NCBI GenBank assembly: GCA_964658305.1
Contig: OZ210885.1
Span: 3,534,001 to 3,598,000 of the forward strand
Direction of reading: 5' to 3'
DNA length: 64,000 nt
Origin: Leptogorgia sarmentosa
Taxonomy: Eukaryota
Below, one piece after another: positions 1-30,256 of the stretch. Made by a program: the position numbers and the translations under genes. Numbering within the stretch: the stretch's first letter is position 1; every line of letters starts with the position of its first letter. Below the pieces are notes generated by a model. It saw nothing but the letters and a program-made list of their open reading frames with translations. It was not told where the DNA came from and ran no database searches.

Positions 1-635
1 TAAGTTGTCAATGATGTTTATGGAATGTATATACAGTATAAACTCTAATATAGTCTTGATCACCACGCATACTGTATAATTTATCGTAAGCAAAACATTT
101 GTAAGACTGATGAGACATACATTTTGATTTTAAACTCATATTATCAGAGAGTTTAAGCTTCGGTCAACGGCGAACGGAAGGTCTAACTTTTGCTGCAGAA
201 TGTTGGTTTTACCACTTCATTTCAAATTTTCTTTCTCATGTTAAAAGAATAATTAAACATTGAAGTTTTGAAACAACAAGTCCATTGACATTCTACTGCT
301 TACGGTTGAAACTTTGTCAGTTTGTGTCTGCTGTTTGACGTTTGACACTTGAAAGCGAATCTTGAAGCCTTAAACTTTCTATGATCGATATTGGTGGGCA
401 ATTGGCGTAAAAAAATATTGTCAATACTGTTGGTGTACTGACCTACAACCGTATCACACATTACCTTCAAACACCAGCAAGGATATGCTGAAATAAGAAA
501 GCCAACGATGAAAAAGCCACGACATCTTTTCGTAGATTTTCAATACTGAAAGAGTAAGAGCATGTACTTCCGCATCACATTATTTCTCAATAATCAACGA
601 AATGAAAAATATATGCACCAATTATTAACAATTAA
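1..635 (-). repeat. Inverted copy of the paralogues' upstream region
   Basis: The reverse complement matches ~14795-15417 and ~29060-29677. For example, 1-40 reverse-complements to TATACATTCCATAAACATCATTGAC at ~29646-29670. Confidence 0.85.
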
Positions 636-3144
636 ATTATCCCCGCGAGGCAAGCCGTTCGGTCGTTAGCCCGGGCTGAGGGTAATAATTCCGCACGGCT
701 ATTTACACCAGGGTAAAGGAAAGCATAGCGGAGTCTGAAACATTGAACTAAAAAATAACTAGAACGATAAGTCAGGGGGGAAATTGAAGCCGTGCTTGAA
801 GATGTTTTTGTATGCAGACCCAGTTTTTTTCGAATATTATATGTAGCATGATAATTAAATTGTAAGGCGTGCGTTCATAGTCTTAGTTCTTAAAAGTTTG
901 AGACAAAACAGAGACAAAACTAAGACGTCAAACCTCAGGAATTATTTAACCCTATGTAAAATACATCAGTATGCGAAGCTTCGTGAAGATTGGACGCATG
1001 AAAGTCGAAAGAAATGCGTTTGATTTTAATGTTGACAAAAACACTCATTACCAGAAATCTTAAGCGTCGCGCCCGCTGTCATGTGTCAGCGGCAACAATC
1101 ATGAATTAAAATTATTCAATGAGCAGGCGATGAAGCGAGTCAGAATCACTATGTAGCACAAGACGTATATTATATTTACCACAGAGAAAAGTGAGGCAAA
1201 TTTATTTATTCGCGGCTCAAAACTACTTGATTCTTAAACCTGTAATATTCTTTTTTGCTAACCTTTTCGTTTTAACGCTTCGTTTTTGTTCATTTGACCA
1301 CGTTTGTAGCCTAACCGCGTGGGATTATGTAGGAATTATTACAAATATCAAATGTAAGGAGCATGAAATGCGATAATCGTAGAAGTAATGTTAATTTTAT
1401 TCATTTTGAGCTAACTTTTTTCCATACTTTCCTTTCATGCTTAATATGCTTAACCAAAATTCCCATTTTTAATTTTTGGTGTAAAAATACTAAAAAAGCT
1501 GCATTAACCAGTATACTCCTATGGCTTCCAATAAATAATAAATGATTCACGACTTTGAATTGTGAAGGCCTGGGGAGAGCGCATCATTTTAGGAATGGTT
1601 AAGTTGTCTGGTGATTATTTATTCGGAGTACTCGGATTGCCCACGAGAAGTGCGAAGTCAAAAATAGCAACATTTGCAAAAGTCGATTTATTAAAAGACT
1701 CATAGCGACAATGAAATGGTTAAAATGACAGTTTCATTATTTTTGTTGGTTGAAGCTAGAGCAAACATTTGTCATTTTTTTGAAATATAAAACTAAAAAT
1801 CCTCACTATTTGCCGTGTACTCCTTGGCAATTTTTGCTCAAAAACAAACTTGTGAGAAAAAATCCTCACTCGATCCTCCGAACTCTCTCAGTCCTTTTGT
1901 ATATTAATTTTACTGCGGGCCGGGTTCTGCCAATCATAGGACCAAATCATAGAAGTTATCATCCCAAATGCTTCAGACAGAAGATCCATCTTGAAATTCT
2001 AACTAAAGCTAAAGGTGAAGAACATGTTTTTTAAGACTTATATTATTCGAATAACCGCAAATGGGCTCAAATCCACCAAAACCTCGCCCTTAATAATTCC
2101 TTATATGTTCGATCTCATTCCATAATTGTTAATAATTAGTGCATATATTTTTCATTTCGTTGATTATTGAGAAATAATGTGATGCGGAACTATACGCTCT
2201 TAGTCTTTCAATATTCAAAGTCAACGAAAAAATGTCGCGACTTTTTCATCGATGGCTATCTTATTTTAGCATATCCTTGGTTGTGTTTGAAGGTAATGTG
2301 TGATACGGTGTAGTCAGTACAGCAACAGTACTGACAATATTTTTTACCCCAATTGCCCACCAATATCGCATGGCTAGAAATATGCGACATGCAGTATTAC
2401 GCAAAGGGCATTCGGACTTTCAAAATGCTCGTTAATTTATAGTATGCAGCAAGGCAAAATAGTATGTTTTCTTACATGCGAAGTATAAACATGGTAAATC
2501 GACTTGTAGCGAATCGAAAAAGCAAAATATTGTGATATTTAGAAGCCGATAAACCTTGTCCCCGAGCGATTCAAACGTATCCATGGATTGTAGCGTATTA
2601 GCCGCCATTAATCATCAATTCTTATATACTTCACTGAAAGAGAGCGGTGTTTTAGGATACATGAAATACAAATTCCAACATGCGAAGCTTGATTTGTCAA
2701 GATGGGGTTTCGGCGGCTTCAACTAATATAAAACCTATAAAAGGTTACGTATCTTTCCCTTGTCCAGCTTTACGTTTATGTTCGGCAAAGTGCTTCGCTT
2801 TGCTTGAAATATCCATAACTATTGAAGAGAAAGAGAAACTGACAAAGTTTCAACCGTAAGCAGTAGAATGGAAATGGAGTTGTTGTTAAATTATTCTTTT
2901 GACATGAGAAAGAAAGTGGTTAAACCAAATTCCGCGGCAAGAGTTAGACCTTCCGTTCGCCGTTCACCGAAGCATAAACTCCCTGATAATATGAGTCTAA
3001 AAATCAAAATGAATGTTATATTTGGTTTAAAAATGTTTTGCTTGCGATAAATTATGCAGTATGCGTGGTGGCATTAATGATCAAGACTATCATAGGCTGA
3101 GTTTATACTGCATATACATTGCCTAAACATTATTGACAACTTAG

Positions 3145-3974: not shown

Positions 3975-4382
3975 ATTGTCGAGGTCTTTTCCTCAGGCAT
4001 ACCCAGACTGGAAAGTGTATTACGCCATCGGAAGATCTCGTGTACGATGATCCAGACGTCTCTCGTCCTTACTTTGTTGTATTGACTGACAACTGCTTGA
4101 ACGATACAGCACAATTCCGTTATCTTGACAGGCCGCTGTTATTCAATATTGAGAAGCAAGGAACGCTGTGGTCTCCCGGCGGCTATATGTCTCGTTGGTG
4201 GGTTTACAATGGCGTACATCCCAGTAGAGTTAGGAGTGAAATCAGCAGTTCCAATTATTTAAAACAAACAGCTGCAGGGTCTTTATTCTTGTACAATCGG
4301 GGTGTATGTGCTCAGTCCAGTTCATCAAATTATCTATTACGTGCAACGTGTGGTAACACAGCAGAGCAAAAGTTTACCTTTG
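3975..4382 (+). CDS. Copy 1 exon A: ricin-B/beta-trefoil-like N-terminal domain (hypervariable between paralogues)
   Basis: ttcag|AT...TTTG|gtaag, phase 1-1. FLRHTQTGKCI, AQFRY and EQKFTF resemble the GKCL and QxW/F repeats of ricin-B lectins. Fold assignment is by motif only. Confidence 0.7.
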
Positions 4383-7300
4383 GTAAGTGAGAATTATACT
4401 GGACACCCCGCACAATTATATCGAAAGAATAAAACTGATTACTATATTCGTCTTCTCCCCGACAGATTTCTTTTGAAATAAACTTGAAAGAAATTCGTCG
4501 AATGAGGGCAAACATTGGGCTTGATAATTCTTCATATTGTGCGAAAACCGAATTTAATAATTGTTTTATTATTTATTTACAGTCGATTTCAGGTCAATTC
4601 ACTGTTTGTATTTAGCCAACCAGAAACCAGGAATTTTAAAATAAATAATAACGGATTTTGCATTGTGTGTAGCAAAGAAATATTTGCAAAATGGAATTTG
4701 AAATTGCGAAAGCTAATTAAGTCTACAGTTCAAAATGTTAATTATCAGGTGACTGTGTCAAATCGCTTTTCACATTTGGTTTATCTCTACTTAGGGCGAT
4801 GTGAGATTTCCCTATGACCAGACGAAAATCTTTTATTTGGATTTTTTTAAAATGCATTCCACGATTGGGAAAATTAGTCTAATATCAACTCTGTTTTATA
4901 GGTGCAGTGACAGCCTATAACGCTGAAATGGAAAATGTCCACTGCTCTTCAGAACAGCATATGATGGTAAAGAGTGCTGATTATGGAGATTTTAATGATA
5001 GTGGTACATTTAATCACAACCCAAAAAACATTGATACACAATGTAGCAAGCTTACCAATTGCCAAGTGAAATCTCGTTGTAGCGGAGGGAAATCGTGTGA
5101 ACTGGTAATCGACAGTAATTTGCTACCATCGCAATATTGTTCTGATACTTCAAAACAAATATACACCAAGTACACTTGTGTGGATACCAACAGCTCCTCC
5201 GCTATAACTGCAGGTAAAATTTATTGAAATGCTATTGTATATTATTTTTTCTCTTTTAAAATCCCTTTTTTGCACTCTTGATGTTGATGAATCAAAGTTA
5301 ATGATCTAAATTCTTTGTTTGAGATCATTTACATTAGGGTCGACATATGAAAAGTTCCACGTCTGAACTACGATCTTGGCCAATAATGCATGGAACGGCA
5401 GGCCGAACCGACTATTTCCAGTTTTAAATATGACTAAATATGATGTTTTACCTCAAGGGATTCTAATAATTATACGCACGACAAATGAATCATTGTTCGA
5501 TAATTTAAGGCCGAGACTGTAGGCCTGAGGATCGTTATCGCAGGCTCATGAGACCAGCAATTGAAAACCGAATAAATGAGACACAGCGACAACTATCTTT
5601 ACTTTGGATGTGCAGTGTCCTCAGAGCATGGAATGACTTCAAAACTACATGTTTGCATTATGAAGTATATAAGGCTCGAAAGAATTTTATATGATTTATT
5701 ATGGCAATCACATTAACAAAAAATAGTATCAATAATATGTGCAAGGTGACCCAGCCAAAGCAATTAAAGTTCTCCATCAAGAACGAGCACTTTTCCTACG
5801 ACGTTTTTTGAATGCGAAGTATTTCATAACCATAATAAGCGATGAAACGCAAATCCCAGCAGCAATTTCTTTAAGAAAATATATTTTTCTTTGCTTTTGG
5901 TTAAAATGTGTTCAGAAAGTTAAAATAAGTACTGCCCAACTGTTTCACGACTTGGAAAACAGCTCTATCGAACGATAACAAAGCATATGAATTATTTAGG
6001 AGTGTTCATGATTTGATAATATTATTAATGTTTCAGCTTCCAATATTAGATTGTCAAACCGAAACGAGGGGTATATTGAAATAAAAAATGGTTCAATATG
6101 GAAGAAAGTTGTTGAGGAAAACTGGGATAAAAACCGTCAAAAAATGCTGTGTCAGTATTTAGGATTTGAAGAGATTGATGGCAATAATATTGAAACTACA
6201 CAGTTAGGGAGTGGACAAAAGATTGCAACTGGGGGCCTGATATGTTATAACACACAATCAAACATAGCATCCTGTTGTGTCCATCTTAATCCTTTAACAA
6301 CCAATACAAGTACTACGATTCCAGATGTGAGATGTAAGTACGCGGCTCTGCGTGTAGCAACTGAGAGGATGTTTGCTAAACGTTTCGGAAAAGTCTGGAT
6401 TTGCCCCCCCCCCTGCCGAATAGCTCCCCCGTCGCCACTGAGCTGTGTAACAAAAAATCTGAAAAACTATTATCCACCCATCAGTTCTATATACAGAGCA
6501 GCCATGTTACTCTAAATTAATGTTGGTGCTGCATTAATACATTTCCGCTATACTGGAATGGATTTCTAAGCATGTGAACGAGGCCGAAAAATGCATCAAA
6601 CATTTAACTCACTGCGATGATTGTGTTTTTGTTCAAAGTAAACACCTACCTTAATGAATGACGTAATTTCAACCTACGAATGTGGCTGAATCAATGTTCT
6701 GAAAATGTACATAATTCAGTCTGAGATATTCAGTTTCCTACAACAATAAGTAATATTGTATTCCTGCACCGATGAATTTAATTTAGTTTTTCAATTTTCG
6801 TCGCAGGCAAAATATGTAAGAACCCACTACTGCAAGAAGAAAATACTTTTCCAGACTCTGTGCTTTCCGGCAGTGGTGATCCAAGTGGGAACTACAAAGA
6901 TGCAAGAATCACTAAAAGTGGCTGGTGTCCATTGGGGTCCGGCAGCACATACCTCTTGCTCGACCTTCAGAAAGAATATCACATAACTCAAGTCGTGGTT
7001 ATGGCTGATGAAGAACAAACAAAATGGAGCGGCTCATATTCTTTGAAATACAGTCACGACACTTCTTATAAAAACAGCGCAAAGGTACAGTTATTATAGT
7101 AATGAAGTTATGGTTTCCTGAAAATGAATGGTAGAAAAAAGTTGGTAGAGAAGACTTCATGAAACAAGACCTTGCTGACGTATCGAGATTGACAAACTCC
7201 TACCCTTGTAATATAAAATAGAAACGTGATTTACCTAATTCCGGCGATCTTCAGTGCATGGTATACAATAGCGTATAATTAATTAACTATAAAGCGTCGA

Positions 7301-10300
7301 AAAAGTGAGGAGATTTTAAATCTAAGAGTCTAAGACAGCACATAATTTTATTTAACTTAACAAGGAATTGAACGAATTTAATTATCGATGATGTACATAT
7401 TACTTAACGTAACTGTTTGAGATCACGAGTTCTTCCTAATTTTCAGGAATTTGGAAACCAAAACGGCTACCAAGCATCAAGAACAAGCCTTAATATTTAT
7501 AATGTTAGACGCATGAAAATAGAGTCCACTGGAAACAGAAACTTTTGTCTACGTATACAACTTTGTGGAGAGGGTAAGAAATTGAGGAACAGTGAATAAC
7601 ATACATGAATGCCGAGATTGTCAGCTCGCAAAGAAACAGGTTATTTAGTCGAATACAAAGTTTTCATTGTATTTTAATATCAAACAAATTTTGGGAGTAA
7701 TTAGCATGGTAAATCGTGTTAGTCAATAGTCAATATTCAAGATATGAAGATAATTCAAGATGTTTCGCGACTTAAATTAGAGCGGTTTCTGGCCCCCTCA
7801 AATTTCTTTCAGGACCATTCTCACAAAAGGTCTAAAACTGTGTAGATGTGATAAACGGCGGGGGGGAGGGGGGGGTGTGGGTGTAAGGGGCGTTAGAAGA
7901 TCCAATAATGATGCTGTTGAAGCATAGAATATTATGCTTTAATCTGAAATCTCACCAGGAAAATGCAGTCTAAATTTCAACATTTTCTGGTGGAGCAAGC
8001 ACTTGCCCGGGATCCCCTGCAGTACCACGAATCTCGCTCCAAAAAAAATGACCTTGGCTTGATCGTCTATACTTTGTTTTTAGTTCAAACGCCAGCTCAA
8101 GTATCCAATATCTCAGTTTCACCATCAAAATTCTCTGCAACAGTAATGTGGAAAATATCTACATCCACTCAGCACTCCAGCTATATAACAGGGATCATCA
8201 TATACATCAACGGCCAAGTACACAAGACTGTATCTCGGGGGACTCAAGTATCTATAGAGGGACTTTTACCGTACACTTCGTATTCCGTGGGAATTCAAAC
8301 TCAGGATGGTTCATCACAAAAGAGTCAAATAGTTACCAAACCTTTCATGACAAGAGGAATTGGTATGTTTGGGGAATCATGCTTCCATGGAGATATCTTA
8401 TTCGACCTTAATTTCGTGTGACTTTTCTTTCGCGATTCGAAAAAATCGCAAATTAAAGTCCCGCGAAAAACTCTTCCCCACAAATTTACACACGCGAAAT
8501 TAAATACCCTCGTATATAAACAATTTAAAATTATTAAATTATTAATGTTCTCATAAATACAATGAATCACATGTTGAAGAAGGTTGGGATAGCGAACGTT
8601 CATATCAGTACATAAGAACTTCCCCTAGAAGACCAATTGTCGAATGAGTTTCATGTGAAGTAGAAAAAACATTATGGGCTACTTGTCGTGGTTCTGTCTT
8701 CCTTGAAAAGTTGTTTAAATATTTTAAGTTGAAGTTTAAATCATAGTGTAAATGATTCTCAGGAAAAACTCTATCCCTTTTTCTATTTTCGGTCATTAAA
8801 ATCGCGAAATATGGTTTCCAAAAAATCGCGAAATTAATTAGGTGCAAAATTAAGTACGAATAAGGTATGTAATCGTTGGGTTAAAATTCTTAGAAAATTT
8901 ATTCACATAGCCCCATTACGATTTTTCTTTCATGGATTAGTTAAGTTGTGGTAGGGTGCTGCTTGTGCAATCATCTTCTATAATCTGCTAAAATCGGGGA
9001 CAAATTTATTTCCGCTTCGAATTCTGGAAAATTCATTCATCAAAGTGAACATCACCTTGTCATGATAACACTGTATTTTGAAGCTACACACAGCATTGTT
9101 CGAATCTATACTATTATAAACAACAACTTTTCCTCTTTCATAATATGTGATTGATCTTCCATTTTTTCTTGTCGTAGCACCTCCCATAGTCGTTTCAAGG
9201 ATCGTATCAACGGCCTCTAAAACGTACACTATCTTCTGGGTTCAACCAACACTACCGGCTGGACAAACCGTCCTGAAGTACTTTATAAACTACAGAGTTC
9301 TCAATGGGCACAATAATTCAAGAAATGTATCAAAGGATATGACATCTATTACTATTGATGTTGAATATGAGAAACAATATATTTTTGAAATACAAGTTGT
9401 GACCGAGCCGGGAATGAGTAATGTGACGTCAAGAACCTGGTTCTCTCATTCAGGTAAAAATACATGAATTTTTTTTGTACAATGTGACAGTAACAACGGT
9501 TTAGTCTATGGAACTGCCAAATTTATCTGCGCCGAATTTTTTCTTGGAGGGAGGGATGGGTACTTGAAGAAACTTCTCAACCAGCCTTAGTACACCTCAA
9601 ATTTCTGGCATATAGTTAAAATGTCGGCGATTTAAACAATTTAGTTGTCTTTCTATTATTTATTCAATTTTATTTGTTTTTTATCCCTTCTATGTAGCGC
9701 CCTTGAAAACGCCGACCAAAAAGAACGACAGTTACACAGTAACACTGATAAAGCCAAGAAAAGAGCAAAATATTAAGTAAGTTGACATGAAATAGTTAAT
9801 AATTTGAAACAACTCACTCATAATGAAATCATTTTGTTGTAAAATATGTCTTTGTTCTCTTTTCTTTGAACTCTCGGAAACTGTGCTATTTAGTTACTTA
9901 CCTTGAGCTGGTTGACGTTGTCCGCGGTTAAAGTGCGAAAGTTTAGTCAGACGAAACTGTAGGTAAAAGTTGTAACTAAACTGCAACTACTGCGAATTGC
10001 AAGAAGAAACAACTGAAGGTTCCGGATAGCGAAATACCTACACGCAGATACTTTCTTTTCTTAGGCAAGTCGCTCTTGTGTTACTCAAATCAAAAAATCT
10101 CCTGGCACCAGAAGAAGTTGAGCTGCGGTTGTGCCGAGAAGAGAACGATATCGCCTTTAAAGCTAAAGTATTTGATATAACGGACTTTCAAGAAGATACA
10201 ATAGAAATATCACTTCAACAGACTCCAGACAAACGCCGAAGAAAGAGAAATGCAGTTGTAGTTGAGGCATTGTCACCTATGTCAACCTACAGAGCTGCCC

Positions 10301-12764
10301 AATTAAACACTGACGAGTCTGAGGTAGGTTAAAATAACTTCTTCTCGCAGGAAAGATTCATGCGAAAAACGAAATTGCCAACGTCAAATGATCACTCCCA
10401 AAATCTCAACATCTATTTTGGGTAAATTCATGGAGCTCTTCCGAACCCTTGCATATCATTGCAATTCCTATTGGTGGCGACTAGCGGGCTTACAAGATCT
10501 TGTTTATAACCCATGATTTCAGAACCGTAACGAATAAATGTACTGTCGCAATGAGGAATAGCGTCATAGTGATAGTTGTTTAACTGAAATTTGCATTTTT
10601 TTTAGAATGAACGTTGGTCATATTGGAGTGAACCTTTTACTTTCATTGGAGGTAGGCTGCATGGCGCATGTATTTATAAAATAACCGGAAGTAAGTGAAA
10701 AAGACTGCGCGCGCGTGATTGGCTAACAGTCGTGTTGATGTGAGATTATGTATATTGTGAAATGTGGGATTATTTCCACACATTTCTCGTTCTCCCAATC
10801 TTGCACTCGTGTTTACATAACTCGATGCAAACATGGAAAATGTTTTCAATTCCTTAAATACAGCTAAGGCTATATACTTGCGAACTTCAAACCTTGAACA
10901 TTATTTGGGAATCTTATTGCACATGCAAATTGTTCAAGTGTTGTATAATTTAGTCATTCAGATTTCAGATAATTTAAAAAATAGATGGCGGTTACGCCGC
11001 AAGGTAAAAAGTATTTTAAAACCAATTTCTATTCCAAATTAATTTTCTTTAATTTTTTTTATAAAATATTCTTATATAGTCAGTAATCAAGGCAAAGAAG
11101 ATGAAAGTAAATCACTTTCTTGATGGTTTATTTATTCTGTTCATGAAATCAAAATACCGTTGACAAAATGTTGGGATGAACATGCAACATTCTGAATTCT
11201 TGTATTATAGAAACTGTTGACGGTCAAGATACGAAGCAATCCAGTTGTGGGAAAATCCAAATAGATCTCCTCATTCCTCTGGTTATATTTATTCTTTGTT
11301 TTCTGCTGTCACTTGGTGTAATCATATATCAACGTCGTCTCATTCAAAATTATAAAAAGCTATCTGGCCGGGACTACGAGGTGCCAGAAAAGGCAAAAGC
11401 ACAGCAAACGATTAAATCTAGTATGTATACTTATTCTTTCAGTTAAGTTATTCTATTAACCAGGGGCGTAGCCAGCCCTACAAAAGTGAGGGGGTCCATT
11501 CATCCAGTAGATCATATACAGTTATACTGCGCAACAATATGTCCAAACGTTCATGTATTTTAGGCGGGGATGTTATGAACTTGAAAATAACAAATGTTTC
11601 ACAAGTGCACCTTAAACAAAACAGCCTAATGTGTGTGTATATGAATCAAATAATATATTAATCAAATGTTGGGGATGCAATGGTGCATGATTAGACTGTG
11701 AGGAGGCGTACTCGATATTCCTTATATCCGCTTTCTTACTTGATTTTAAAGGAATTGAAAGACATGTTTTGAATAAAAGTGGGGGGGTCCGGACCCCTCC
11801 CCCTCCGATTCCATCCCGTTAAATTAAATTTGTCAGCAGTAGACTGTCGTACATGAAAACGCAAATCTTAAAATATAACTTGCTTCTTGATCTACAACCT
11901 ATAACTTGTTTAAACTCGTTGCAAGACATTTTTATTTTGTTATTCAGGCTTTGCCATGGTTATAGAAGTAATGTTAATCAGAGAGAATGCATAAAAATGC
12001 CACGGGTTCTAAACTCGGCCTCAAACGAAAAGGCCTTTTGGGGTCTGCCCGTTCCAGAATCCTTCGGTTTATGAACACTTGTTTGGCCAAAAAGCACAGA
12101 AAAGAGTCATGTTTCAGCTATATAATACACTTCTCACATCATAATTCTCATTGACCGCGGAAGATCGATAATTGGGGGGGGGGGGCTCATATTCATATAT
12201 TCGAGTTCACAAATCTTGATTTCAAAACAACCCATAACAATTGACTTCAAAAGGAATAAGGAATGCAAAAGACGAATATATAAATATTAGCCCCCCCCCC
12301 CCCCCCGTCATTTGTTGAACTTCCGCTGTCGCTGAATTTAACCCATGACAGCCTGTTGTATATTGCATATCCGTTAGGGTTATCTCGAGCGGTTGTTTCG
12401 TGTGGGTGTACTGACAATGATAACTGATTATCATGGATCAAAATGGAAGAGATGCATCAACACCTTTCTTAATTCCATTCCAGCTCTTGAAGGTAACAAC
12501 AAAACTGTGAAAGCCGTCAAAGCTGCTACCGGCAGTGATTTGAACAAGAATGATGGATATGAATCACCTGACTGCTTTGCTAAAGGGAACAAGCAAAATG
12601 AAACTGAATCTCAACAAGAACTTTCTGCTGCAGAAGAATCCTCGACTTACATGTCTTTGAAAAACTGCAGAGATCCTGAGAACGTTTATCAATCGCTACA
12701 ATACCCCAATATTCAGACCGTGGAATATGAAAATCCCACATTTACGTCCAAAGGGCAAATGTAG
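3975..12764 (+). CDS. Receptor paralogue 1: multi-exon type I membrane protein (ricin-B-like, SUEL, SRCR, F5/8-C, FN3 x2, juxtamembrane FN3-like, TM, tyrosine-motif tail)
   Basis: Exons 3975-4382, 4902-5213, 6037-6333, 6807-7084, 7447-7573, 8084-8362, 9178-9453, 9698-9776, 10065-10323, 10606-10651, 11211-11420, 12484-12764. All have AG/GT boundaries with matching phases. They total 2852 nt, open to TAG at 12762-12764 (~950 aa). The 5' leader exon with ATG is not identified. Confidence 0.85.
4902..5213 (+). CDS. Copy 1 exon B: SUEL/galactose-rhamnose-binding lectin-like domain (degenerate)
   Basis: VHC...MMVKSADYG...C...VKSRCSGGKSC...C SDTSKQIYTKYTC follows the SUEL Cys/YG pattern. Phase 1-1 exon. 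Confidence 0.8.
6037..6333 (+). CDS. Copy 1 exon C: SRCR-like domain
   Basis: IRLSNRNEGYIEIKNGSIWKKVVEENWDKNRQKMLCQYLGF matches the SRCR N-terminal consensus (RL..EGrvEv...W..V...W......C..LG). Phase 1-1. Confidence 0.8.
6343..6502. mobile_element. Old MITE-like element in intron C-D, shared by all five copies
   Basis: Imperfect terminal IR GCTCTGCGTGTAGCAACTGA / TCAGTTCTATATACAGAGC around a poly-C tract. Confidence 0.5.
6807..7573 (+). CDS. Copy 1 exons D+E (6807-7084, 7447-7573): F5/8 type C (discoidin) domain
   Basis: C.NPLL...FPDS..SGS...DARI...GWCP....YLLLDL......QV......WS.SYSLKYS | EFGN....CLRIQLCG is the discoidin pattern. Phase-0 intron inside the domain. Confidence 0.85.
8084..8362 (+). 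CDS. Copy 1 exon F: fibronectin type III domain 1
   Basis: PAQVSNISVSP...ATVMW...IEGLLPYTSYSVGIQT is a classic FN3 (W, L.P.T.Y). Phase 1-1. Confidence 0.9.
9178..9453 (+). CDS. Copy 1 exon G: fibronectin type III domain 2
   Basis: APP...YTIFWVQP...KYFINYR...YIFEIQVVTEPGMS FN3 pattern. Phase 1-1. Confidence 0.85.
9698..10651 (+). CDS. Copy 1 exons H-J (9698-9776, 10065-10323, 10606-10651): juxtamembrane FN3-like domain with KRRRKR furin site and WSYWS motif
   Basis: Phases 1-2-0-1 join in frame: APLKTPTKKNDSYTVTLIKPRKEQNIKQVALVLL...PDKRRRKRNAVVVEALSPMSTYRAAQLNTDESE|NERWSYWSEPFTFIG. The small exons H and J are conserved with their splice sites in copies 1, 2 and 4 (H also in copy 5). Confidence 0.8.
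11211..11420 (+). CDS. Copy 1 exon K: transmembrane helix plus start of cytoplasmic tail
   Basis: LLIPLVIFILCFLLSLGVIIY (11267-11329) is followed by QRR (positive-inside) and DYEVP. Boundaries tatag|AA...TCTA|gtatgt. Confidence 0.85.
11461..11817. mobile_element. hAT-like MITE fragment, copy 1 only
   Basis: Starts CAGGGGCGTAGCCAG with a G-run/C-run subterminal region. Copies 2-4 read CTATTAAC|GTTAAA without it. The right TIR is not recognisable. Confidence 0.65.
12484..12764 (+). CDS. Copy 1 exon L: terminal cytoplasmic exon with ITAM-like tyrosine motifs
   Basis: GYESP...STYMSLKNCRDPENVYQSL...EYENPTFTSKGQM*. The stop position is conserved in copies 1-4. Confidence 0.8.
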
Positions 12765-14766: not shown

Positions 14767-16290
14767 TTCCTTATATGTTCGATCTCATTCAATAATTGTT
14801 GATAATTAGTGCATATATTTTTCATTTCGTTGATCATTGAGAAATATTGTGATGCGGAAGTATATGCTCTTACTCCTTCAGTATTCAAAATCAACGAAAA
14901 GATGTCGTGGCTTTTTCATCGATGGCTTTCTTATTTTACCATATCCTTGCTGGTGTTTGAAGGTAATGTGTGATACGGTTGTAGTCAGTACAGCAACAGT
15001 AACTAGCTACTGACAATATTTTTTACCCCAATTGCCCACCAATATCGATCATAGAATGTTTAAGGCTTTAAGCTACGCTTTCAAGTGTCAAACGTCAAAC
15101 AGCAAAGACAAACTGACAAAGTTTCAACCGTAAGCAGTAGAATGTCAATGGACTTGTTGTTAAATTATTCCTTTTACATGAGAAAGAAAGTGGTTAAACC
15201 AAATTCCGCGGCAAGAGTTAGACCTTCCGTTCGCCGTTCACCGAAGCATAAACTCCCTGATAACATGAGTCTAAAAATCAAAATGTATGTTATATTTGGT
15301 TTAAAAATGTTTTGCTTGCGATAAATTATGCAGTATGCGTGGTGGCATTAATGATCAAGACTATATAGACTGAGTTTATACTGCATATACATTGCCTAAA
15401 CATTATTGACAACTTAGGTTCTAGAAGTTGGTTCAGGAACAACAACTTAATTGGTTCAGGAAGTTGTGATATTATAGTTAAGTGCCTGTTAACTGTTGTA
15501 TATCTCTGGGTAGAAGGTTTATAAATTACACTGAAACCCTGTCGTTATTATTAGTACCTTGATAAAAACGAAACGAACACGTGTTATATATATATCGTTT
15601 GGTATATATGAGAATGCTCACACCAGACGCATTTGATACGCACCGAGACATCAACACATCCACACATGCGCAGAGAGGCATTGGGGCAGAGTGGCCTAAC
15701 GACCACAAGGGACGCGAGCTTTGCTCTCGCCCCAAAGCATAAATAGACATTGCTACAATGTGCCTATTTATAGCAATGTTGAAAAACAATATGATGTATT
15801 CACGAGTAACAATCGTGTTTAAGCGTGCATTGACTTGCACATTGACAGCGTGCATATAGCTATATTATAGGTATTGACTTATTAAGAATTTAAGATATCT
15901 TTGTAAAGCCCACTGACGCCATCGATTTTCTGCCTTTGGGATTTCAAAGGAGGAGCTTCGTAAATTCTGAAGAAGAATATTTCGCCAATAATGCATGCAT
16001 GCACTCGTGGGTTCAACTTCGTGCTATGGGCATCGAAATTCTAACAATGGATTATTTTAAATATTTGCGATTTTTTTGTACACCCTGTATGTGAAAATTG
16101 AAGACATTTTGTGCAGCTAAAATATATTCATGTCGAAAAGGTTGAGGAGGAAGCAATATCAATGTGTCGCGGGATCAGAACTTTACATGTATAGCCTGAG
16201 TATATTCGGAAATTATTTTACTGAAAGTTCTTTGTTATCAGTGTCATTGATAATTGCGTCATCATTCAATTTTTATCCTTCTTTGTTCAG

Positions 16291-19200
16291 ATTGTGAAGG
16301 CCTTTTCCTCAGGTATACCCAGACTGGAAAGTGTATTACGCCATCGGAAGATGTCGTGTACGATGATCCAGACCTCGCTCGTCCTTACTTTGTTGTATTG
16401 ACTGACAACTGCTTGAACGATACAGCACAATTCCGTTATCTTGACAGGCCGCTGTTATTCAATATTGAGAAGCAAGGAACGCTGTGGTCTCCCGGCGGCT
16501 ATATGTCTCGTTGGTGGGTTTACAATGGCCTACATCCCACTAGAGTTGGGCACGAAATCAGCAGTTCCAATTATTTAAAACAAACAGCTGCAGGGTCTTT
16601 ATTCTTGTACAATCGGGGTGTATGTGCTCAGCCCAGTTCATCAAATTATCTATTAAGGAAAACGTGTAGTAACACAGCAGAGCAAAAGTTTACCTTTGGT
16701 AAGTGAGAATTATACTGGACAACCCGCACAATTATATCGAAAGAATAAAACTGATTACTATATTCGTCTTCTCCCCGACAGATTTCTTTTGAAATAAACT
16801 TGAAAGAAATTCGTCGAATGAGGGCAAACATTGGGCTTGATAATTCTTCATATTGTGCGAAAACCGAATTTAATAATTGTTTTATTATTTATTTACAGTC
16901 GATTTCAGGTCAATTCACTGTTTGTATTTAGCCAACCAGAAACCAGGAATTTTAAAATAAATAATAACGGATTTTGCATTGTGTGTAGCAAAGAAATATT
17001 TGCAAAATGGAATTTGAAATTGCGAAAGCTAATTAAGTCTACAGTTCAAAATGTTAATTATCAGGTGACTGTGTCAAATCGCTTTTCACATTTGGTTTAT
17101 CTCTACTTAGGGCGATGTGAGATTTCCCTATGACCAGACGAAAATCTTTTATTTGGATTTTTTTAAAATGCATTCCACGATTGGGAAAATTAGTCTAATA
17201 TCAACTCTGTTTTATAGGTGCAGTGACAGCCTATAACGCTGAAATGGAAAATGTCCACTGCTCTTCAGAACAGCATATGATGGTAAAGAGTGCTGATTAT
17301 GGAGATTTTAATGATAGTGGTACATTTAATCACAACCCAAAAAACATTGATACACAATGTAGCAAGCTTACCAATTGCCAAGTGAAATCTCGTTGTAGCG
17401 GAGGGAAATCGTGTGAACTGGTAATCGACAGTAATTTGCTACCATCGCAATATTGTTCTGATACTTCCAAACAAATATACACCAAGTACACTTGTGTGGA
17501 TACCAACAGCTCATCCGCTATAACTGCAGGTAAAATTTATTGAAATGCTGTTGTATATTAATTTTTCTCCTTTAAAATTCCTTTTTTGCACTCTTGATGT
17601 TGATGAATCAAAGTTAATGATCTAAATTCTTTGTTTGAGATCATTTACATTAGGGTCGACATATGAAAAGTTCCACGTCTGAACTACGATCTTGGCCAAT
17701 AATGCATAGAACGGCAGCCCGAACCGACTATTTCCAGTTTTAAATATGACTAAATATGATGTTTTACCTCAAGGGATTCTAATAATTATACGCACGACAA
17801 ATGAATCATTGTTCGATAATTTAAGGCCGAGATTGTAGGCCTGAGGATCGTTATTGCAGGCTCATGAGACCAGCAATTGAAAACCGAATAAATGAGATAT
17901 AGCGACAACTATCTTTACTTTGGATGTGCAGTGTCCTCAGAGCATGCAATGACTTCAAAACTACATGTTTGCATTATGAAGTATATAAGGCTCGAAAGAA
18001 TTTTATATGATTTATTATGGCAATCACATTAACAAAAAATAGTATCAATAATATGTGCAAGGTGACCCAGCCAAAGCAATTAAAGTTCTCCATCAAGAAC
18101 GAGCACTTTGCCTACGACGTTTTTTGAATGCGAAGTATTTCATAACCATAATAAGCGATGAAACGCAAATCCCAGCAGCAATTTTTTTAAGAAGATATAT
18201 TTTTCTTTGCTTTTGGTTAAAATGTGTTCAGAAAGTTAAAATAAGTACTGCCCAACTGTTTCACGACTTGGAAAACAGCTCTATCGAACGATAACAAAGC
18301 ATATGAATTATTTAGAAGTGTTCATGATTTGATAATATTATTAATGTTTCAGCTTCCAATATTAGATTGTCAAACCGAAACGAAGGGTATATTGAAATAA
18401 AAAATGGTTCAATATGGAAGAAAGTTGTTGAGGAAAACTGGGATAAAAACCGTCAAAAAATGCTGTGTCAGTATTTAGGATTTGAAGAGATTGATGGCAA
18501 TAATATTGAAACTACACAGTTAGGGAGTGGACAAAAGATTGCAACTGGGGGCCTGATATGTTATAACACACAATCAAACATAGCATCCTGTTGTGTCCAT
18601 CTTAATCCTTTAACAACCAATACAAGTACTACGATTCCAGATGTGAGATGTAAGTACGCGGCTCTGCGTGTAGCAACTGAGAGGATGTTTGCTAAACGTT
18701 TCGGAAAAGTCTGGATTTGCCCCCCCCCCCTGCCGAATAGCTCCCCCGTCGCCACTGAGCTGTGTAACAAAAAATCTGGAAAACTATTATCCACCCATCA
18801 GTTCTATATACAGAGCAGCCATATTACTCTAAATTAATGTTGGTGCTGCATTAATACATTTCTGCTATACTGGAATGAATTTCTAAGCATGCGAACAAGG
18901 CCGAAAAATGCAGGAAACATTTAACTCACAGCGATGATTGTGTTTTTGTTCAGAGTAAGCACCTACCTTAATGAATGACGTAATTTCAACCTACGAATGT
19001 GGCCGAATCAATGTTTTGAAAATGTACATAATTCAGTCTGAGATATTTTTCCTGCCGCCAAAAGTAATATTGTATTATTGCACCGATGAATTTAATTTTG
19101 TTTTTCAATTTTCGTTGCAGGCAAAATATGTAAGAACCCACTACTGCAAGATGAAAATACTTTTCCAGACTCTGTGTTTTCCGGCAGTGGTGATCCAAAT

Positions 19201-22200
19201 GAGAACTACAAAGATGGGAGAATCACTAAAAGTGGCTGGTGTCCATTGGGATCCGGCAGCACATACCTCTTGCTCGACCTTCAGAATGAATATCACATAA
19301 CTCAGGTCGTGGTTATGGCTGATGAAGAACAAACAAAATGGAGCGGTTCATATTCTTTGAAATACAGTCACGACACTTCTTATGAGAACAGCGCAAAGGT
19401 ACAGTTGTTCTAGTAATGAAGTTATGGTTTCCTGAAAATGAATGGTAGAAAAGAGTTGATAGAGAAGACTTGATGAAAGAAATCCCGCTAACGTATCCAG
19501 GATTGACAAACTCCTACCCTTAATATTAAATAGAAACGTGATTTACCTAATTCCGGGGATCTTCAGTGCATGGTATACAATAGCGTATAATTAAATAACT
19601 ATAAAGCGTCGAAAAAGAGAGGAGATTTTAAATCTACTGAGACTGCACATATTTAACTTAACAAGGAATTGAACGAATTTAATTATTGATGATGTACATA
19701 TTTGTTAACGTAACTGTTTGAGATCACGAGTTCTTCCTAATTTTCAGGAATTTGGGAACCAAAACGGATACCAAGCATCAAGAACAAGTCTTGACATTTA
19801 TAATGTTAGACACATGAAAATAGAGTCCACTGGAAACAGAAACTTTTGTCTACGTATAGAACTTTGTGGAGAGGGTAAGAAATTGAGGAACAGTGAATAA
19901 CATACAAGAATGCCGAGAATGTCAGCTCGCAAAGAAACATGTTATTTAGTCGAATACAAATTTTTTATCGTATTGTAATATCAAAAAAGTGTTCGGCAGT
20001 AGTTAGCATGGTAAATCGTATTACTCAATACTCAAGATATGAAGATATTCTAGATGTTTAGCGACTTAAATTAGAGCGGTTTCTGGCCCCTTCAAATTTC
20101 TTTCAGGACCATTCTCACAAAACTGTGTAGATGTGATAAACGGCGGGGGGGAGGGGGGGTGTGGGTGTAAGGGGCGTTAGAAGATCCAATAATGATGCTG
20201 TTGAAGCATAGAATATTATGCTTTAATCTGAAATCTCACCAGGAAAATGCAGTCTAAATTTCAACATTTTCTGGTGGAGCAAGCACTTGCCCGGGATCCC
20301 CTGCAGTACCACGAATCTCGCTCCAGAAAAAATGACCTTGGCTTGATCGTCCATACTTTTTTTTTAGTTCAAACGCCAGCTCAAGTATCCAACATCAAAG
20401 TTTCACCATCGAAAGTCTCTTTAACCGTAATGTGGGAAATATCTACATCAATTCAGCACTCCAGCTATATAACAGAGATCTTCATATACCTCAACGGCCA
20501 AGTACACAAGACTGTATCTCGGGGGGCTCAAGTAACTATAGAGGGACTTTTACCATATACTTCGTATTCTGTGGGAATTCAAACTCAGGATGGTTCATCA
20601 CAAAAGAGTCAAATAGTTACCAAACATTTCACGACAAGAGGAATTGGTAGGTTTGGGGAAGCATGCTTCAATGGAGATTTCTTATTCGTACTAATTTCGT
20701 GTGACTTTTCTTTCGCGATTGGAAAAAATCGCATATTGAAGTCGCGCAAAAAACACTTCCCCACAAATTTACACACGCGAAATTAAATACCCTCGTATAT
20801 GAACAATTTAAAATTATTAAATTATTAATGTTTTCATAAATACAATCAATCACATGTTGAAAAAGTTGGGACAGCGAAGGTAGTTATCAGTGCAGAAGAA
20901 CTTCCCCTAGAAGACCAATTAACGAATGAGTAGTTCATGTGACTAGAAAATTAAAACATTACGGGCTACTTGTCGTGGTTCTGTCTTCCTTGAAAAGTTG
21001 TTTAAATATTTTAAGTTGAATTTTTAATCATAATGTAAATTATTCTCGGGAAAAACTCTATCCCTTTTTCTATTTTCGGTCATTAAAATCGCGAAAATAA
21101 AGTCTGGCGAAATATGGTTTCGAAAAATCGCGAAATTAATTAGGTGCAAAATTAAGTATGAATAAGGTTTGTACTCGTCGGGTTGAAATTCTTAGAAAAT
21201 TTATTCACATAGCCCCATGGCGATTTTTTCCATCATGGATTGGTTAAGGTGTGGTAGGGTGCTGTTTGTGCAATCATCTTCCTTAATCTGCTAAAAACAG
21301 GGACAAATTTATTTCCGCTTATAGAAAATTCATTCATCAAAATGAACATCACCTTGTCATGATAGCACTGTATTTTGTAGCTACACATTGTTCGAATCTA
21401 TACTAATATAAACAACAACTTTTCCTCTTTAAAATATGTGATTGATTTTCCATTTTTTCTTGTCGTAGCACCTCACGCAGCCATTTCAAAGATCCTATCA
21501 ACAGCCTCTAAAACGTACACTATCTTCTGGCTTCAACCAACACTGCCTGTTGGACAAATCGTCCTGAAGTACTGTATAAACTATAGAGTTCTCAATGGAG
21601 CCAATAATTCAAAAAATGTATCAAAGGATATGACATCTATTACTATTGATGTTGAATATGAGAAACAATATATTTTTGAAATACAAGTTGTGACCGAGGC
21701 GGGATTAAGTAATGTGACGTCAAGAACCTGGTTCTCTCATTCAGGTATAAAATACATGAACTTTTTCTACAGTGTGACAGTAATAACCAGTGGCGGCGCC
21801 AGGCCTCAGAATTTGGGGGGGCATTTGAGGGGCAAAGTCATATTTTGGGGGGGCAAAATAGAATTTTTAAAGTACTGTTATTTGCCCATGCCGTTATTAA
21901 ATATGTATGATGACACAAATTAATAATCGTTCTTTTATGCATAATTTTTATTATTTTAACAGATATGAACTTCGTTACAGTTATTAATCAACAATGTGAA
22001 CAAGCATAATGTAAACTTAACATTTTTAAACACACTTTTACGGCTATAGTGTATAACAAATTTTAATGCCATTTAGACAAGTGTATAATTCGGCACCTCG
22101 GAAACTTTTGAATAAACCTATCCACAACTCCTTTTCCAAATCAATACTTAGTGCTCTTTTTCTGTAAATGCTGATAACTGTTAAGAATTTTAACCTAGAG

Positions 22201-25200
22201 TTGGACATTCTGGTTCTTAAATGGTTTTTGATTATTTTTAATTTGCTAAGTGTTCTTTCACATCCCGCAGTACTAACCGGAAGTGTCATAGCAATTTTGA
22301 CAGCTTTACAGAGTTCCGAAATGCTAAGTTTAAAGGATTTAAAAATTCCGCAAATTTAGATCCGACTTGGTCGCATGGATCCAGGCTTGTGTAGCCTTTA
22401 GTCGCTCTCAGTGACTAATAATTTAGGGGGGCAAAATGGGGCGGGGCAGAAAAAAATTTGGGGGGGGGGGGTATTTGCCCCCCTTGCCCCCCCCCCTGGC
22501 GCCGCCACTGGTAATAACGGTTTAGTCCATGGAACTGGGAAATTTATCTGCGCCGAATTTTTTCTTGGAGGGAGGAATTGAGTACTGTAGTGCATAAAAA
22601 TTACGCATCGCTCATTCAAAAGTACTTTTAAAACCACGTTTGAAGAAACTTCTCAACCTCCCTTAGTACACCTCAAATTTCTGGCATATAGTTAAAGTGT
22701 CGGCGATTGAAACAATTTGGTTGTTTTCCCAATTGATTATTCAATTTTATTTGTTTTTATCCCTCCTATTTAGCGTCCTTGAAAACGCCGACCAAAATTA
22801 ACGACAGTTACACAGTATCACTGATAAAGCCAAGAAAAGAGCAAAATATTAAGTAAGTTGACATGAAATAGTTAATAATTTGAAGCAACTCACTTTTGTG
22901 TCTATAATGAATTCATTTTGTTGTAAAATATGTCTTTGTTTTCTTGTCTTTGAACTCTTGTAAACTGTTCTGAGTTACTTTACTTACCTTGAGCTAACTG
23001 ACGTGCGAAAGTTTAGTCAGACGAAACTGTAGGTGAAAGTTGTAACTAAACTGCAACTACTGCAAATTGCAAGAAGAAACAAGGTTCCAGATAGTGAAAT
23101 TTACACACAGATACTTTCTTTTCGTAGGAATGTCGCTCTTGTGTTACTCAAATCAAAAAATCTCCTGGCACCAGAAGAAGTTGAGCTGCGGTTGTCGCCT
23201 CCTTCAGTTGAAGAAAACGATATCGCCTTTAAAGCTAAAGTATTTGATGTAACGGAGTTTCAAGAAGATACAATAGAAATATCACTTCAACAGACTCCAG
23301 ACAAACGACGAAGAAAGAGAAATGCTGTTGTAGTTGAGGCATTGTCACCTATGTCAACCTACAGAGCTGCCCAATTAAACACTGACGAGTCTGAGGTAGG
23401 TTAAAATTTCTTCTCTGCGCAGGAAGTTCATGCAAAAAACGACTTTTAAAACGCACCCATGTCAGAAATATGGCGACGTCCAGGGCCGTCGCTAGAACGT
23501 TAATTGGGGGGGTGCATATTCATATTTTGGCGTTCTGCCGACTGATTTCTTTAGAAATTAATTCATAAACAACTGATTTCAAAAGAAATCAGTCGGCAGA
23601 ACGCCAAAATATGAATATGCACCCCCCCAATTAACGTTCTAGCGACGGCCCTGGCGACGTCAAATGATCATTCAAAACCTCAACATCTATTTGGGGTAAA
23701 GTCGGGGAGCTCTTCCTAACCTTTGCATGTCATTGCAATTCCTATTCGTGGCGACTAGCAGGCTTACAAGATCTTGTTTATAACCCATGATTTCAGAACC
23801 GTAACGAATAAATGTACTGTCGCAATAAGGAATAGCGACATAGATAGTTGTTTAACTGAAATTTGGCATTTTTTTTAGAATGAACGTTGGTCATATTGGA
23901 GTGAACCTTTTACTTTCATTGGAGGTAGGCTATATGTATTTATAAAATAACCGGAAGTAAGTGAAAGACTGCGCGCGTGATTGGCTAACAGTCGTGTTGA
24001 TGTGAGATTATGTATATTGTGAAATGTGAGATTATTTCCACACATTTCTCGTTCTCCCAAACTTGCCCTCGTGTTTACATAACTCGATGCAAACATGCAA
24101 AATGTTCTCAATTCCTTAAATACAGCTAAGGCTATATACTTGCGAACTTCAAACCTGAACTGAAACTTCAAACTTGAACTGAAACTATAAGCGTACAAAG
24201 CATGATGGGAGCCGCATTTTATCAGTCCAGAAATCATATATGAGGCTCATTCCTTAGGACAATGGTACACGACTGCTATATACAATAAAAACCCAATATT
24301 TATAGTTTCCGGGCTTGAAGTCTTGCTGCCCTATATGCTTTGCGCGCTCACAGTTTGGAAATTTTAATTTAACGTTTGCAAAGTAGTTGTAGTCTGTTTA
24401 TCAAATCCTCTTAATAAAATCTCAGTGCGATATGTTATATTTTAACATTATTTGGGAATCTTATTGCAAATTCTTCAAGTGTTGTATAATTTAGTCATTC
24501 AGATTTCAGATATTTTAAAAAATAGATGGCGGATACGCCGCAAGGTAAAAAGTATTTTTAAACCAATATCTATTCATGACAAAATTAATTTTCTTGAAAT
24601 TTTTTTATAAAATATTTTTGTATAGTCAGTAATCAAGGTAAAGAAGATGAAAGTAAATCACTTTCTTGCTGGTTTATTTATTCTGTTCATGAAATCAAAA
24701 TAACGTTGACAAAATGTTGGATGAAGATGCAATATTCTGAATTCTTGTATTATAGACGGTAAAGATGAGAAGCAATGCAGTAGTGAGAAAATCCAAATAG
24801 ATCTCCTGATTCCTCTGGTTATTTTTATTCTTTGTTTTCTGCTGTTACTTGGTGTAAACATATATCAACGTCGTCTCATTCAAAATTATAAAAAGCTATC
24901 TGGCGGGGACTACGAGGTACCAGAAAAGGCAAAAGCAGACCAAACGATTAAATCTAGTATGTATACTTATTCTTTCAGTTAAGTTATTCTATTAACGTTA
25001 AATGAAATTTGTCAGCAGTATACTGTAGTACATGAAAACGCAAATCTTAAAATATAACTTGCTTCTCTTGATCTACAACCTATATCTTGTTTAAACTCGT
25101 TGCAAGACATTTTTATTTTGGTATTCAGGCTTTGCCAAGGTTATAGAAGTAATATCAGAGAGAATGCATAAACATGGCAGTGTTCTAAACTCGGCCTCAA

Positions 25201-29872: not shown

Positions 29873-29930
29873 ATTTACCTGAGGAGTGTGGCAAGTTCAA
29901 CTAGCCATACGAAACAGTTTTGTAGTAAAT
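29873..29930 (+). ncRNA. Type I hammerhead ribozyme motif
   Basis: AUUUAC-CUGAGGA-GUGUGGC(loop)GCCAUAC-GAA-ACA(GUUU)UGU-A-GUAAAU. Stem I 6 bp, stem II 7 bp, stem III 3 bp, complete core, GUA cleavage triplet. Confidence 0.8.
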
Positions 29931-29957
29931 TTTCGATGAAGTAACTTGTGTTTCTCA

Positions 29958-29960
<3 letters not shown>

Positions 29961-30010
<50 letters not shown>
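29961..30010. repeat. (TA)n microsatellite
   Basis: About 25 TA units. Confidence 0.95.
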
Positions 30011-30011
<1 letters not shown>

Positions 30012-30238: not shown

Positions 30239-30253
30239 ACCTTTTTGAGGCAA

Positions 30254-30256
<3 letters not shown>

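What the first reader, a model, noticed from the sequence alone, without database searches (positions are those of the whole stretch)
3975..4382. CDR-like hypervariable loops confined to the N-terminal beta-trefoil-like exon
Invariant framework (TQTGKCITPSE, VVLTDNCLNDTAQFRYLD, RWWVYNG, NYLKQTAAGSLFLYN) alternates with variable segments. Loop 1 in copies 1-5: DLVYDDPDVSRPYF / DVVYDDPDLARPYF / ELAYDDPNAAFPYY / LVYDTPEAIPHY / ELAYDAPSTAIPYY. Loop 2: SPGGYMS / SPGGYMS / PPNHFSYKS / SNSHPAYMS / SPANPAYMR. Loop 3: VHPSRVRS / LHPTRVGH / VDPERVRR / VHSRRVRN / IHPTRVRN. All indels preserve frame. By my manual count, copy 1 versus copy 2 has 12 amino-acid changes and only 2 synonymous codon changes in this exon, whereas the next intron is almost identical and exons B and C encode identical proteins. 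Inference: diversifying selection or short-tract conversion on a ligand-binding surface.
Basis: partly seen in the sequence, partly recalled or inferred. Interest (0 to 1): 0.88.

Follow-up and report, generated by a model that had tools for sequence, protein, structure and literature searches.

The report
Variable trefoil-tipped coral recognition receptors
The window holds five tandem copies of a cell-surface receptor gene, likely from a soft coral, whose outermost domain is predicted to be a ricin-B-type fold and has three fast-evolving loops, and whose tail matches an immune activation motif, so it is likely one arm of a non-self recognition receptor family that our literature searches did not find described.

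Summary
The copy 1 vs 2 counts are exact. My own codon models give omega about 2 and 2dlnL 52-67 on all 15 trees; 108 neutral simulations with conversion or double mutations reached at most 24. No other exon exceeds that null. AlphaFold (pLDDT 95.5) and fold searches give an R-type beta-trefoil. The gene is a single-pass receptor: trefoil-SUEL-SRCR-F5/8C-FN3s-TM-tail with YMSL-x9-YQSL, an ITAM consensus; family contigs confirm splicing. Of 23 relatives, 22 named from two octocorals, 7 carry tandem tyrosine-phosphatase domains and 10 an ITAM tail. The two classes interleave on the ectodomain tree (AU p=0.0004), a paired-receptor pattern. Corrections: not Ig, not strictly confined to three loops, and whole-exon divergence mostly equals intron divergence. 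Ligand, signalling and a phosphatase partner in this species are untested.

The parts
3975..4382 (+). Copy 1 exon A: R-type beta-trefoil domain with three variable loops
2232..2292 (+). Copy 1 first exon, predicted signal peptide; near-identical N-terminus in Paramuricea P0006
4902..5213 (+). Copy 1 exon B: SUEL lectin domain (PF02140, E 8e-9)
6037..6333 (+). Copy 1 exon C: SRCR domain (PF00530, E 3e-10); homogenised among copies (0.3-2% divergence)
6807..7573 (+). Copy 1 exons D (6807-7084) and E (7447-7573): F5/8 type C domain
8084..9453 (+). Copy 1 exons F (8084-8362, FN3) and G (9178-9453, FN3-like, weak)
9698..11106 (+). Copy 1 exons H (9698-9776), I (10065-10323, RRRKR furin-type site), J (10606-10651) and 27-nt J2 (11080-11106): membrane-proximal region shared with phosphatase-bearing relatives
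11211..11420 (+). Copy 1 exon K: transmembrane segment and start of the tail
12484..12764 (+). Copy 1 last exon: tail with YESP, YMSL-x9-YQSL (ITAM consensus) and YENP
14902..26384 (+). Copy 2 gene, open 979 aa; exon A 16291-16698
29168..42791 (+). Copy 3 gene; exon A 31788-32201; lacks exons G-J2, predicted in-frame F-to-K join gives an open 751 aa product with ITAM; retroelement in intron A-B
45086..54998 (+). Copy 4 gene; exon A 46336-46743; exon F is one base shorter than in copy 1 (at 50813), giving a stop at codon 514 as assembled
56059..64000 (+). Copy 5 gene, open through exon H and cut by the window end in exon I; exon A 57678-58091
465..525 (-). First exon of a probable sixth copy, head-to-head with copy 1 and running out of the window

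Best explanation
These are tandem paralogues of a single-pass receptor whose membrane-distal beta-trefoil is under diversifying selection and which likely act as activating sensors of variable non-self ligands, predicted to signal through an ITAM-type tail. Shown: gene structure, splicing of family members, domain content, predicted fold, selection on exon A, conversion mosaics, and conservation of the YxxL-x9-YxxL motif in octocoral relatives. Also shown: relatives with the same ectodomain carry either that tail or tandem tyrosine-phosphatase domains. Inferred mechanism: the variable loops bind a ligand from microbes, parasites, symbionts or foreign tissue. Clustering would let a Src-family kinase phosphorylate the two tyrosines and recruit a Syk/Shark-type kinase. 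Phosphatase-tailed members with near-identical ectodomains would tune or oppose that signal. New specificities would arise by point mutation kept by selection and spread by conversion, while SUEL, SRCR and F5/8C stay under purifying selection as a stalk or invariant co-binding modules.
For: Selection: M0 omega 1.93-2.09 on 15 trees. M1a/M2a 2dlnL 52.3-67.3 on 15 of 15 trees; M7/M8 and M8a/M8 58.2, with about 17% of sites at omega about 16. 36.0 after masking 13 gap-adjacent codons. 0 of 108 neutral simulations exceeded 24.3. Exons B, C, D+E and F: omega 0.38-0.55, LRT at most 0.3. Loop 0-fold 0.265 vs 4-fold 0.033. Copy 1 vs 2 nonsynonymous 16/308 vs flanking introns 18/1517, p=4e-5; synonymous 3/97, p=0.13. 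Fold: pLDDT 95.5; Foldseek E 8e-6, 51 matches at E<=0.001; VIA-align Z 16.1, rmsd 2.1, 114 aligned to actinohivin. Splicing: contigs join exactly across 7 of the 13 predicted introns with GT..AG ends among the 15 joints shown. Tail: the ITAM consensus of PMC9546547 is met; 1.3% of shuffled tails match; 10 of 13 phosphatase-less TM relatives match. Pairing: phosphatase and ITAM members are sisters in three supported clades; one clade for the phosphatase members is rejected, p-AU 0.0004. The same loops vary within Dendronephthya and Paramuricea subclades, 50/91 vs 89/328.
Against: No ligand, expression site or signalling assay exists. With gap-adjacent and multi-nucleotide columns both removed the LRT is 11.1, which 14 of 108 nulls reach. 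One of 11 sites called selected (124) is Arg in all five copies, so site calls are distorted by conversion. 4-fold sites in exon A (0.037) are less diverged than nearby introns (0.04-0.17), so low dS inflates whole-exon omega. No phosphatase domain is in the window, so pairing is shown only in two other species. Those are automated gene models that may be isoforms or chimeras across tandem copies. STYMSL also fits the ITIM consensus, and receptor phosphatases can activate as well as inhibit (CD45; recalled). The codon models are my own implementation, on five sequences.
Confidence: 0.58

Rival explanations
1. An octocoral allorecognition locus: the trefoil domains bind homophilically, variant to like variant, between colonies, as Hydractinia Alr1/Alr2 do. 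Phosphatase-tailed members would signal 'self' and ITAM-tailed members rejection.
For: Clustered single-pass genes with a hypervariable distal domain and ITAMs, as in the Alr complex (PMC9546547, passages). Loop variants absent from the window occur in other samples: P0011-P0015, and a contig of run X9 that reads the loop 3 of P0014.
Against: Diversity is shown between paralogues; alleles and paralogues could not be told apart in contigs. No linkage to fusion or rejection is known. No Ig domains. The lectin and scavenger modules fit microbial sensing as well.
Confidence: 0.24
2. A diversified adhesion or recognition family with a non-immune role (gamete, larval settlement or cell-identity recognition) that uses the same tyrosine motifs.
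For: Positive selection also marks gamete-recognition proteins, and receptor phosphatases with FN3 repeats and a furin site are adhesion molecules (recalled). RRRKR is present here and RRKR in 6 of 7 phosphatase relatives.
Against: Tandem birth and death (copy 3 deletion, copy 4 frameshift) and interleaved opposite tail classes are more typical of immune clusters (inference; compare PMC12065747).
Confidence: 0.13
3. No selection: surface loops are merely unconstrained, and short conversion tracts or multi-nucleotide mutations create the pattern.
For: Conversion is evident: copy 1's nearest partner switches from copy 2 to 5 to 4 along the gene, and 22 informative sites in exon A support six different splits. 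Whole-exon divergence is about intron level. The most masked test is within the null.
Against: Loop 0-fold sites (0.265) exceed 4-fold sites (0.033) and the four intron stretches measured (0.04-0.17). 0 of 108 neutral simulations approach the observed LRT. Exons B-F also convert and show no signal.
Confidence: 0.05

Closest known systems
Hydractinia Alr gene family in the allorecognition complex (PMC9546547; passages read)
   Same: Cnidarian cluster of single-pass receptors; FN3-like folds; many tails with ITAMs of consensus Yxx[I/L]x6-9Yxx[L/I], which this tail meets; gene conversion proposed as a source of diversity.
   Different: Alr variable domains are V-set Ig; here the distal domain is an R-type beta-trefoil followed by SUEL, SRCR and F5/8C. 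Alr opposing tails are ITIMs; here the alternative tail in relatives is a tandem phosphatase. Alr1/2 are mapped allodeterminants; nothing is mapped here.
Botryllus fester / FcoR pairs (PMC12065747; passages read) and vertebrate paired receptors such as KIR, LILR and Siglec (recalled)
   Same: Clustered germline receptors with related ectodomains, opposite signalling tails, and birth-and-death evolution.
   Different: Ig/sushi or sialic-acid-binding Ig ectodomains with ITIM or hemITAM tails or adaptors; in the passages read none carries its own phosphatase domains.
Octocoral receptor-type tyrosine phosphatases and uncharacterised proteins of Paramuricea clavata (CAB3995581.1, CAB3997379.1) and Dendronephthya gigantea (XP_028416881.1 and others)
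   Same: Same family: 55-56% identity over exon A to the Paramuricea proteins; residues 1-593 align at 58% and 588-821 at 50% to P0006.
   Different: Automated names only; the trefoil has no Pfam call in them. The window's genes have no phosphatase domain and form their own recent clade (100/100).
R-type (ricin B, CBM13) lectin domains and the mannose-receptor CysR domain
   Same: Beta-trefoil fold; N-terminal position on a type I receptor as in the mannose receptor family; weak PF24562 match, E 0.046, for copy 4.
   Different: At most about 16% identity with the confident model; no QxW repeat (QF and QxF instead); long insertions at the three variable segments; sugar binding untested.
Biomphalaria GRC and PTC2 polymorphic transmembrane clusters (PMC7494358; passages read)
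   Same: Clusters of hyperdiverse single-pass proteins thought to recognise parasites.
   Different: No homology shown; the main text has no 'phosphatase', 'fibronectin' or 'lectin'. Diversity there is allelic and tied to a phenotype.

Membership tests
R-type beta-trefoil domain | Three-fold beta-trefoil fold | tested here: met
   pLDDT 95.5, pTM 0.87; Foldseek E 8e-6; Z 16.1, rmsd 2.1, 114 aligned
Classical R-type lectin | QxW motif in each subdomain (PMC7744527) | tested here: not met
   QF at 46-47, QxF at 133-135, none in the middle repeat. The same paper notes that SeviL keeps one motif and MytiLec has no Trp, so this does not exclude sugar binding.
Classical R-type lectin | Carbohydrate binding | not testable with these tools
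   needs a glycan array
Ig superfamily / CDR-bearing variable domains (Alr, VCBP, antibodies) | V-set Ig fold in the variable domain | tested here: not met
   The confident model matches beta-trefoils
ITAM-bearing receptor | Yxx[I/L]x6-9Yxx[L/I] in the cytoplasmic tail | tested here: met
   YMSL-x9-YQSL in copies 1-3 and in copy 4's last exon; 10 of 13 phosphatase-less TM relatives match a 6-12 spacer pattern
ITAM-bearing receptor | Phosphorylation and Syk/Shark recruitment | not testable with these tools
   needs a cell assay
Receptor-type protein tyrosine phosphatase | Cytoplasmic PTP domain(s) | tested here: not met
   No tblastn match of the P0006 tail in the window; tails of copies 1-3 are about 123 aa and end in a stop
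Paired receptors | Closely related ectodomains joined to different signalling tails | tested here: met
   In Dendronephthya and Paramuricea models; not shown for the window's own species
Paired receptors | Both classes in one genomic cluster | tested here: inconclusive
   9 of 23 hits (5 with PTP, 4 without) list the same longest-contig length, 2,088,173; positions were not read and some may be isoforms
Paired receptors | Opposite signalling on a shared ligand | not testable with these tools
   needs assays
Allorecognition determinant | High allelic polymorphism linked to fusion or rejection | tested here: inconclusive
   Extra variants seen but alleles and paralogues were not separable; no phenotype

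The most novel reading that the evidence does not exclude
Octocorals have their own paired-receptor self/non-self system built on a hypervariable beta-trefoil instead of an Ig domain. One class fires through an ITAM and its partner carries its own tandem tyrosine phosphatase in place of an ITIM, and this cluster is the octocoral histocompatibility or symbiont-screening locus.
Probability: 0.3. Interest if true: 0.92.

Novelty: new variant of a known kind. Interest (0 to 1): 0.74.

Why it matters
Anthozoans discriminate self from non-self (PMC7563517, passages read), but the passages read name loci only for the hydrozoan Hydractinia. This cluster gives concrete, testable candidates in octocorals, with a defined variable surface and a defined signalling motif. 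It would add a further scaffold, the beta-trefoil, to the Ig, LRR and C-type lectin folds known (recalled) to carry diversified recognition loops. It also suggests a paired-receptor design in which the counter-receptor is itself a phosphatase. Ten full-text searches found no description of this family, but the library lacks most subscription papers and supplements were not searched.

Tried and rejected
No whole genome is held for this window, so family size and a phosphatase-tailed partner in this species were not testable. Pfam gave no hit for copy 1 exon A and only E 0.046 for copy 4; a profile search of PDB sequences gave 0 matches. The first structure model (30 sequences) was poor, pLDDT 62, with no Foldseek match at E<=0.001; it was replaced by the 74-sequence model. 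No model coordinates were available, so exposure and loop proximity were not measured. The metagenome locus scan gave one locus, at 55% identity (1 of 80 pattern matches), so no extra DNA for the codon tests. No RNA holder was listed. S-A and A-B splice joints were not among the 15 of 56 joints shown. Contig depth cannot give copy number. Three long repetitive proteins (P0085, P0090, P0097) among the 67 HMMER hits have unrelated bacterial-type domains and were judged spurious. The Atlas gave Ricin_B clan look-alikes for exon A at 0.95 but with recognition under its threshold, and no usable hit for P0103. Marginal signals in G+H (LRT 7.1) and K+M (6.4) were rejected: 8 of 48 nulls reach 6.4. 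A candidate exon near 11948 was dropped because contigs join 11420 to 12484 directly. My recollection that snail PTC2 includes phosphatase genes was not borne out by the paper's main text. Haplotype-duplication artefact was judged unlikely as the source of the array, since copies differ by up to about 10% with private insertions; local mis-assembly of near-identical tracts is not excluded. Earlier findings of the scan: three look-ups returned nothing.

Full report
Observation. The five exons are at the stated coordinates, bounded by AG/GT and open in one frame. A self-comparison shows five direct tandem units of about 11-16 kb, plus an inverted partial unit at the window's left end. Among the five copies 41 of 137 columns vary, 24 of them in the 31 loop columns. 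No permutation of 2000 put 24 into the best three windows of the same lengths. Five close variants from unnamed public assemblies (79-83% identical to copy 5) vary at 16 of 28 loop columns and 21 of 87 others (p=0.002). Variation is not strictly confined: positions 92, 94, 110-111, 116-117, 122, 125, 128, 132 and 134 also vary.

The gene. Copy 1 is a 14-exon, 979-residue open frame: predicted signal peptide, exon A, SUEL lectin, SRCR, F5/8 type C, FN3, an FN3-like domain, a region with an RRRKR site, a transmembrane segment and a tail of about 123 residues (Pfam). Contigs of runs X8, X9, X10 and X12 (two studies; kind not on record, X12 guessed as DNA) join exactly across 7 of the 13 predicted introns with GT..AG ends among the 15 joints shown. 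These contigs are mostly under 99% alike to copy 1, so they show splicing of the family, not of these exact copies. Copy 2 is intact. Copy 3 lacks exons G-J2 but stays in frame if F joins K. Copy 4 has one base fewer in exon F. Copy 5 is cut by the window end.

Selection. No PAML was available, so I wrote the codon models (F3x4). M0 gives omega 1.93-2.09 on all 15 trees. M1a vs M2a gives 2dlnL 52-67 on all 15, and M7 or M8a vs M8 gives 58.2, with about 17% of sites at omega about 16. Eleven sites pass 0.95 (naive empirical Bayes): seven in the loops and four outside; one of the four is Arg in all copies and so an artefact. Exons B, C, D+E and F give omega 0.38-0.55 and no signal; G+H and K+M give 7.1 and 6.4. 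Because the copies convert, I simulated neutral alignments in which tracts averaging 3, 10 or 30 codons each had their own tree, one set with 11% double mutations: the maximum of 108 was 24.3. Masking 13 gap-adjacent codons leaves 36.0. Also masking columns that need multi-nucleotide steps leaves 11.1, which 14 of 108 nulls reach. Independently of trees, loop 0-fold sites differ at 0.265 and loop 4-fold sites at 0.033, against 0.044 and 0.039 in the rest of the exon and 0.04-0.17 in four intron stretches. The loop figure is for loops chosen for their variability. By simple counting 8 of 10 pairs have dN/dS above 1. Against the reading: whole-exon nucleotide divergence equals upstream-intron divergence for 9 of 10 pairs, and low dS inflates the exon-wide omega.

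Conversion. Copy 1 is closest to copy 2 from about 3800 to 5800, to copy 5 from about 6200 to 7400, and to copy 4 from about 7400 to 11000. Exon C is homogenised across all five, and 22 informative sites in exon A support six different splits. Both forces act: conversion shuffles, and selection retains changes in exon A.

Fold. A 74-sequence alignment gave a model with pLDDT 95.5. Foldseek (best E 8e-6) and VIA-align (Z 16.1, rmsd 2.1, 114 residues) return beta-trefoils, led by R-type lectin domains: GalNAc-transferase lectin domains, CBM13, actinohivin, and the mannose-receptor CysR domain. By DSSP, loop 1 is the tip of a long hairpin (strands 14-21 and 29-37), loop 2 joins strands 62-65 and 77-81, and loop 3 is a helix (84-90) before strand 96-99. 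The QxW motif of classical R-type lectins (PMC7744527, passages) is absent, so the ligand need not be a sugar.

Relatives and tails. All relatives with an organism name are from two octocorals, Paramuricea clavata and Dendronephthya gigantea, so the window is likely octocoral. Most of the 67 HMMER hits are unnamed, so the family's range is not established. Of 23 full-length relatives, 7 end in tandem tyrosine-phosphatase domains with an intact first catalytic motif, 13 have a transmembrane segment and a short tail, and 3 have no transmembrane segment in the model. Ten of the 13 short tails match an ITAM pattern, one is a near miss and two do not match. YMSL-x9-YQxL or close variants, an upstream YExP and a terminal EYxNP recur across otherwise divergent tails. 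The window's tail meets the ITAM consensus used for Hydractinia Alr proteins (PMC9546547, passages); 1.3% of shuffled tails do. It also fits the ITIM consensus at STYMSL. On a tree of the trefoil-to-F5/8C region (25 rows; four of the 23 hits left out as partial or lacking a full trefoil), phosphatase and ITAM members are sisters in three clades (97/95, 100/100, 100/99). An AU test on 18 rows rejects one clade for the six phosphatase members (p=0.0004; run after seeing the tree, LG+G4). The same three loops vary within those subclades (50 of 91 vs 89 of 328 columns), though loops vary more than cores in any family. These are automated models; P0109 and P0112 share long identical stretches and may be isoforms or chimeras. 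No phosphatase domain lies in the window.

Mechanism. Most likely these are activating recognition receptors whose trefoil loops bind a variable non-self ligand. They would signal by tyrosine phosphorylation of the ITAM and Syk/Shark recruitment, balanced by phosphatase-tailed family members (0.58). Homophilic allorecognition is the main rival (0.24), a non-immune recognition role next (0.13), and neutrality is largely excluded (0.05). The ligand, the signalling and the partner in this species are all inferred.

Comparison and novelty. It works like the Hydractinia Alr cluster, Botryllus fester/FcoR (PMC12065747, passages) and vertebrate paired receptors (recalled), but is a member of none: the variable domain is not Ig, and the alternative tail is a phosphatase. 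It is not itself a receptor phosphatase. Ten full-text searches (listings seen) found no paper on this family. I read passages, not whole texts, of PMC9546547, PMC12065747, PMC7744527, PMC7563517 and PMC7494358, and no supplements; genome-paper supplements could list these genes. Verdict: real feature, new variant of a known kind, interest 0.74.

Noticed in passing
window:32409-37370: About 5 kb insertion in copy 3's A-B intron; minus-strand frames at 34379-36109 and 32723-34186 look like the endonuclease and reverse-transcriptase parts of a LINE-type element, in separate frames (read by eye, no family scan).
   Followed up: partly
window:41039-41736: Copy 3 has lost exons G to J2, including the furin-type site; exon phases would let F join K in frame, giving a receptor about 230 residues shorter.
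   Followed up: partly
window:50813: Copy 4 exon F equals copy 1's except for one missing base after a T run; recent pseudogene or assembly error, not resolved.
   Followed up: partly
window:465-525 (minus): Signal-peptide exon of a probable sixth copy, head-to-head with copy 1, 1.7 kb apart.
   Followed up: partly
window:6037-6333 and its four copies: The SRCR exon is homogenised to 0.3-2% among all copies, synonymous sites included, suggesting a conversion hotspot or a recent sweep.
   Followed up: no
window:29958-30340 and 56733-56809: Dinucleotide-period repeats and short inverted-repeat elements in the first intron of copies 3 and 5; further inverted-repeat elements at 23475-23661, 25592-25753 and 30712-30945.
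   Followed up: no
P0101, P0102, P0108 (Dendronephthya): Models with a second or internal trefoil domain, either true ectodomain duplications or fused gene models.
   Followed up: no
run X9 contig on window:3973-4298: Its differences read as the loop 3 variant of P0014, which none of the five copies has: a further paralogue or allele (read by hand).
   Followed up: partly
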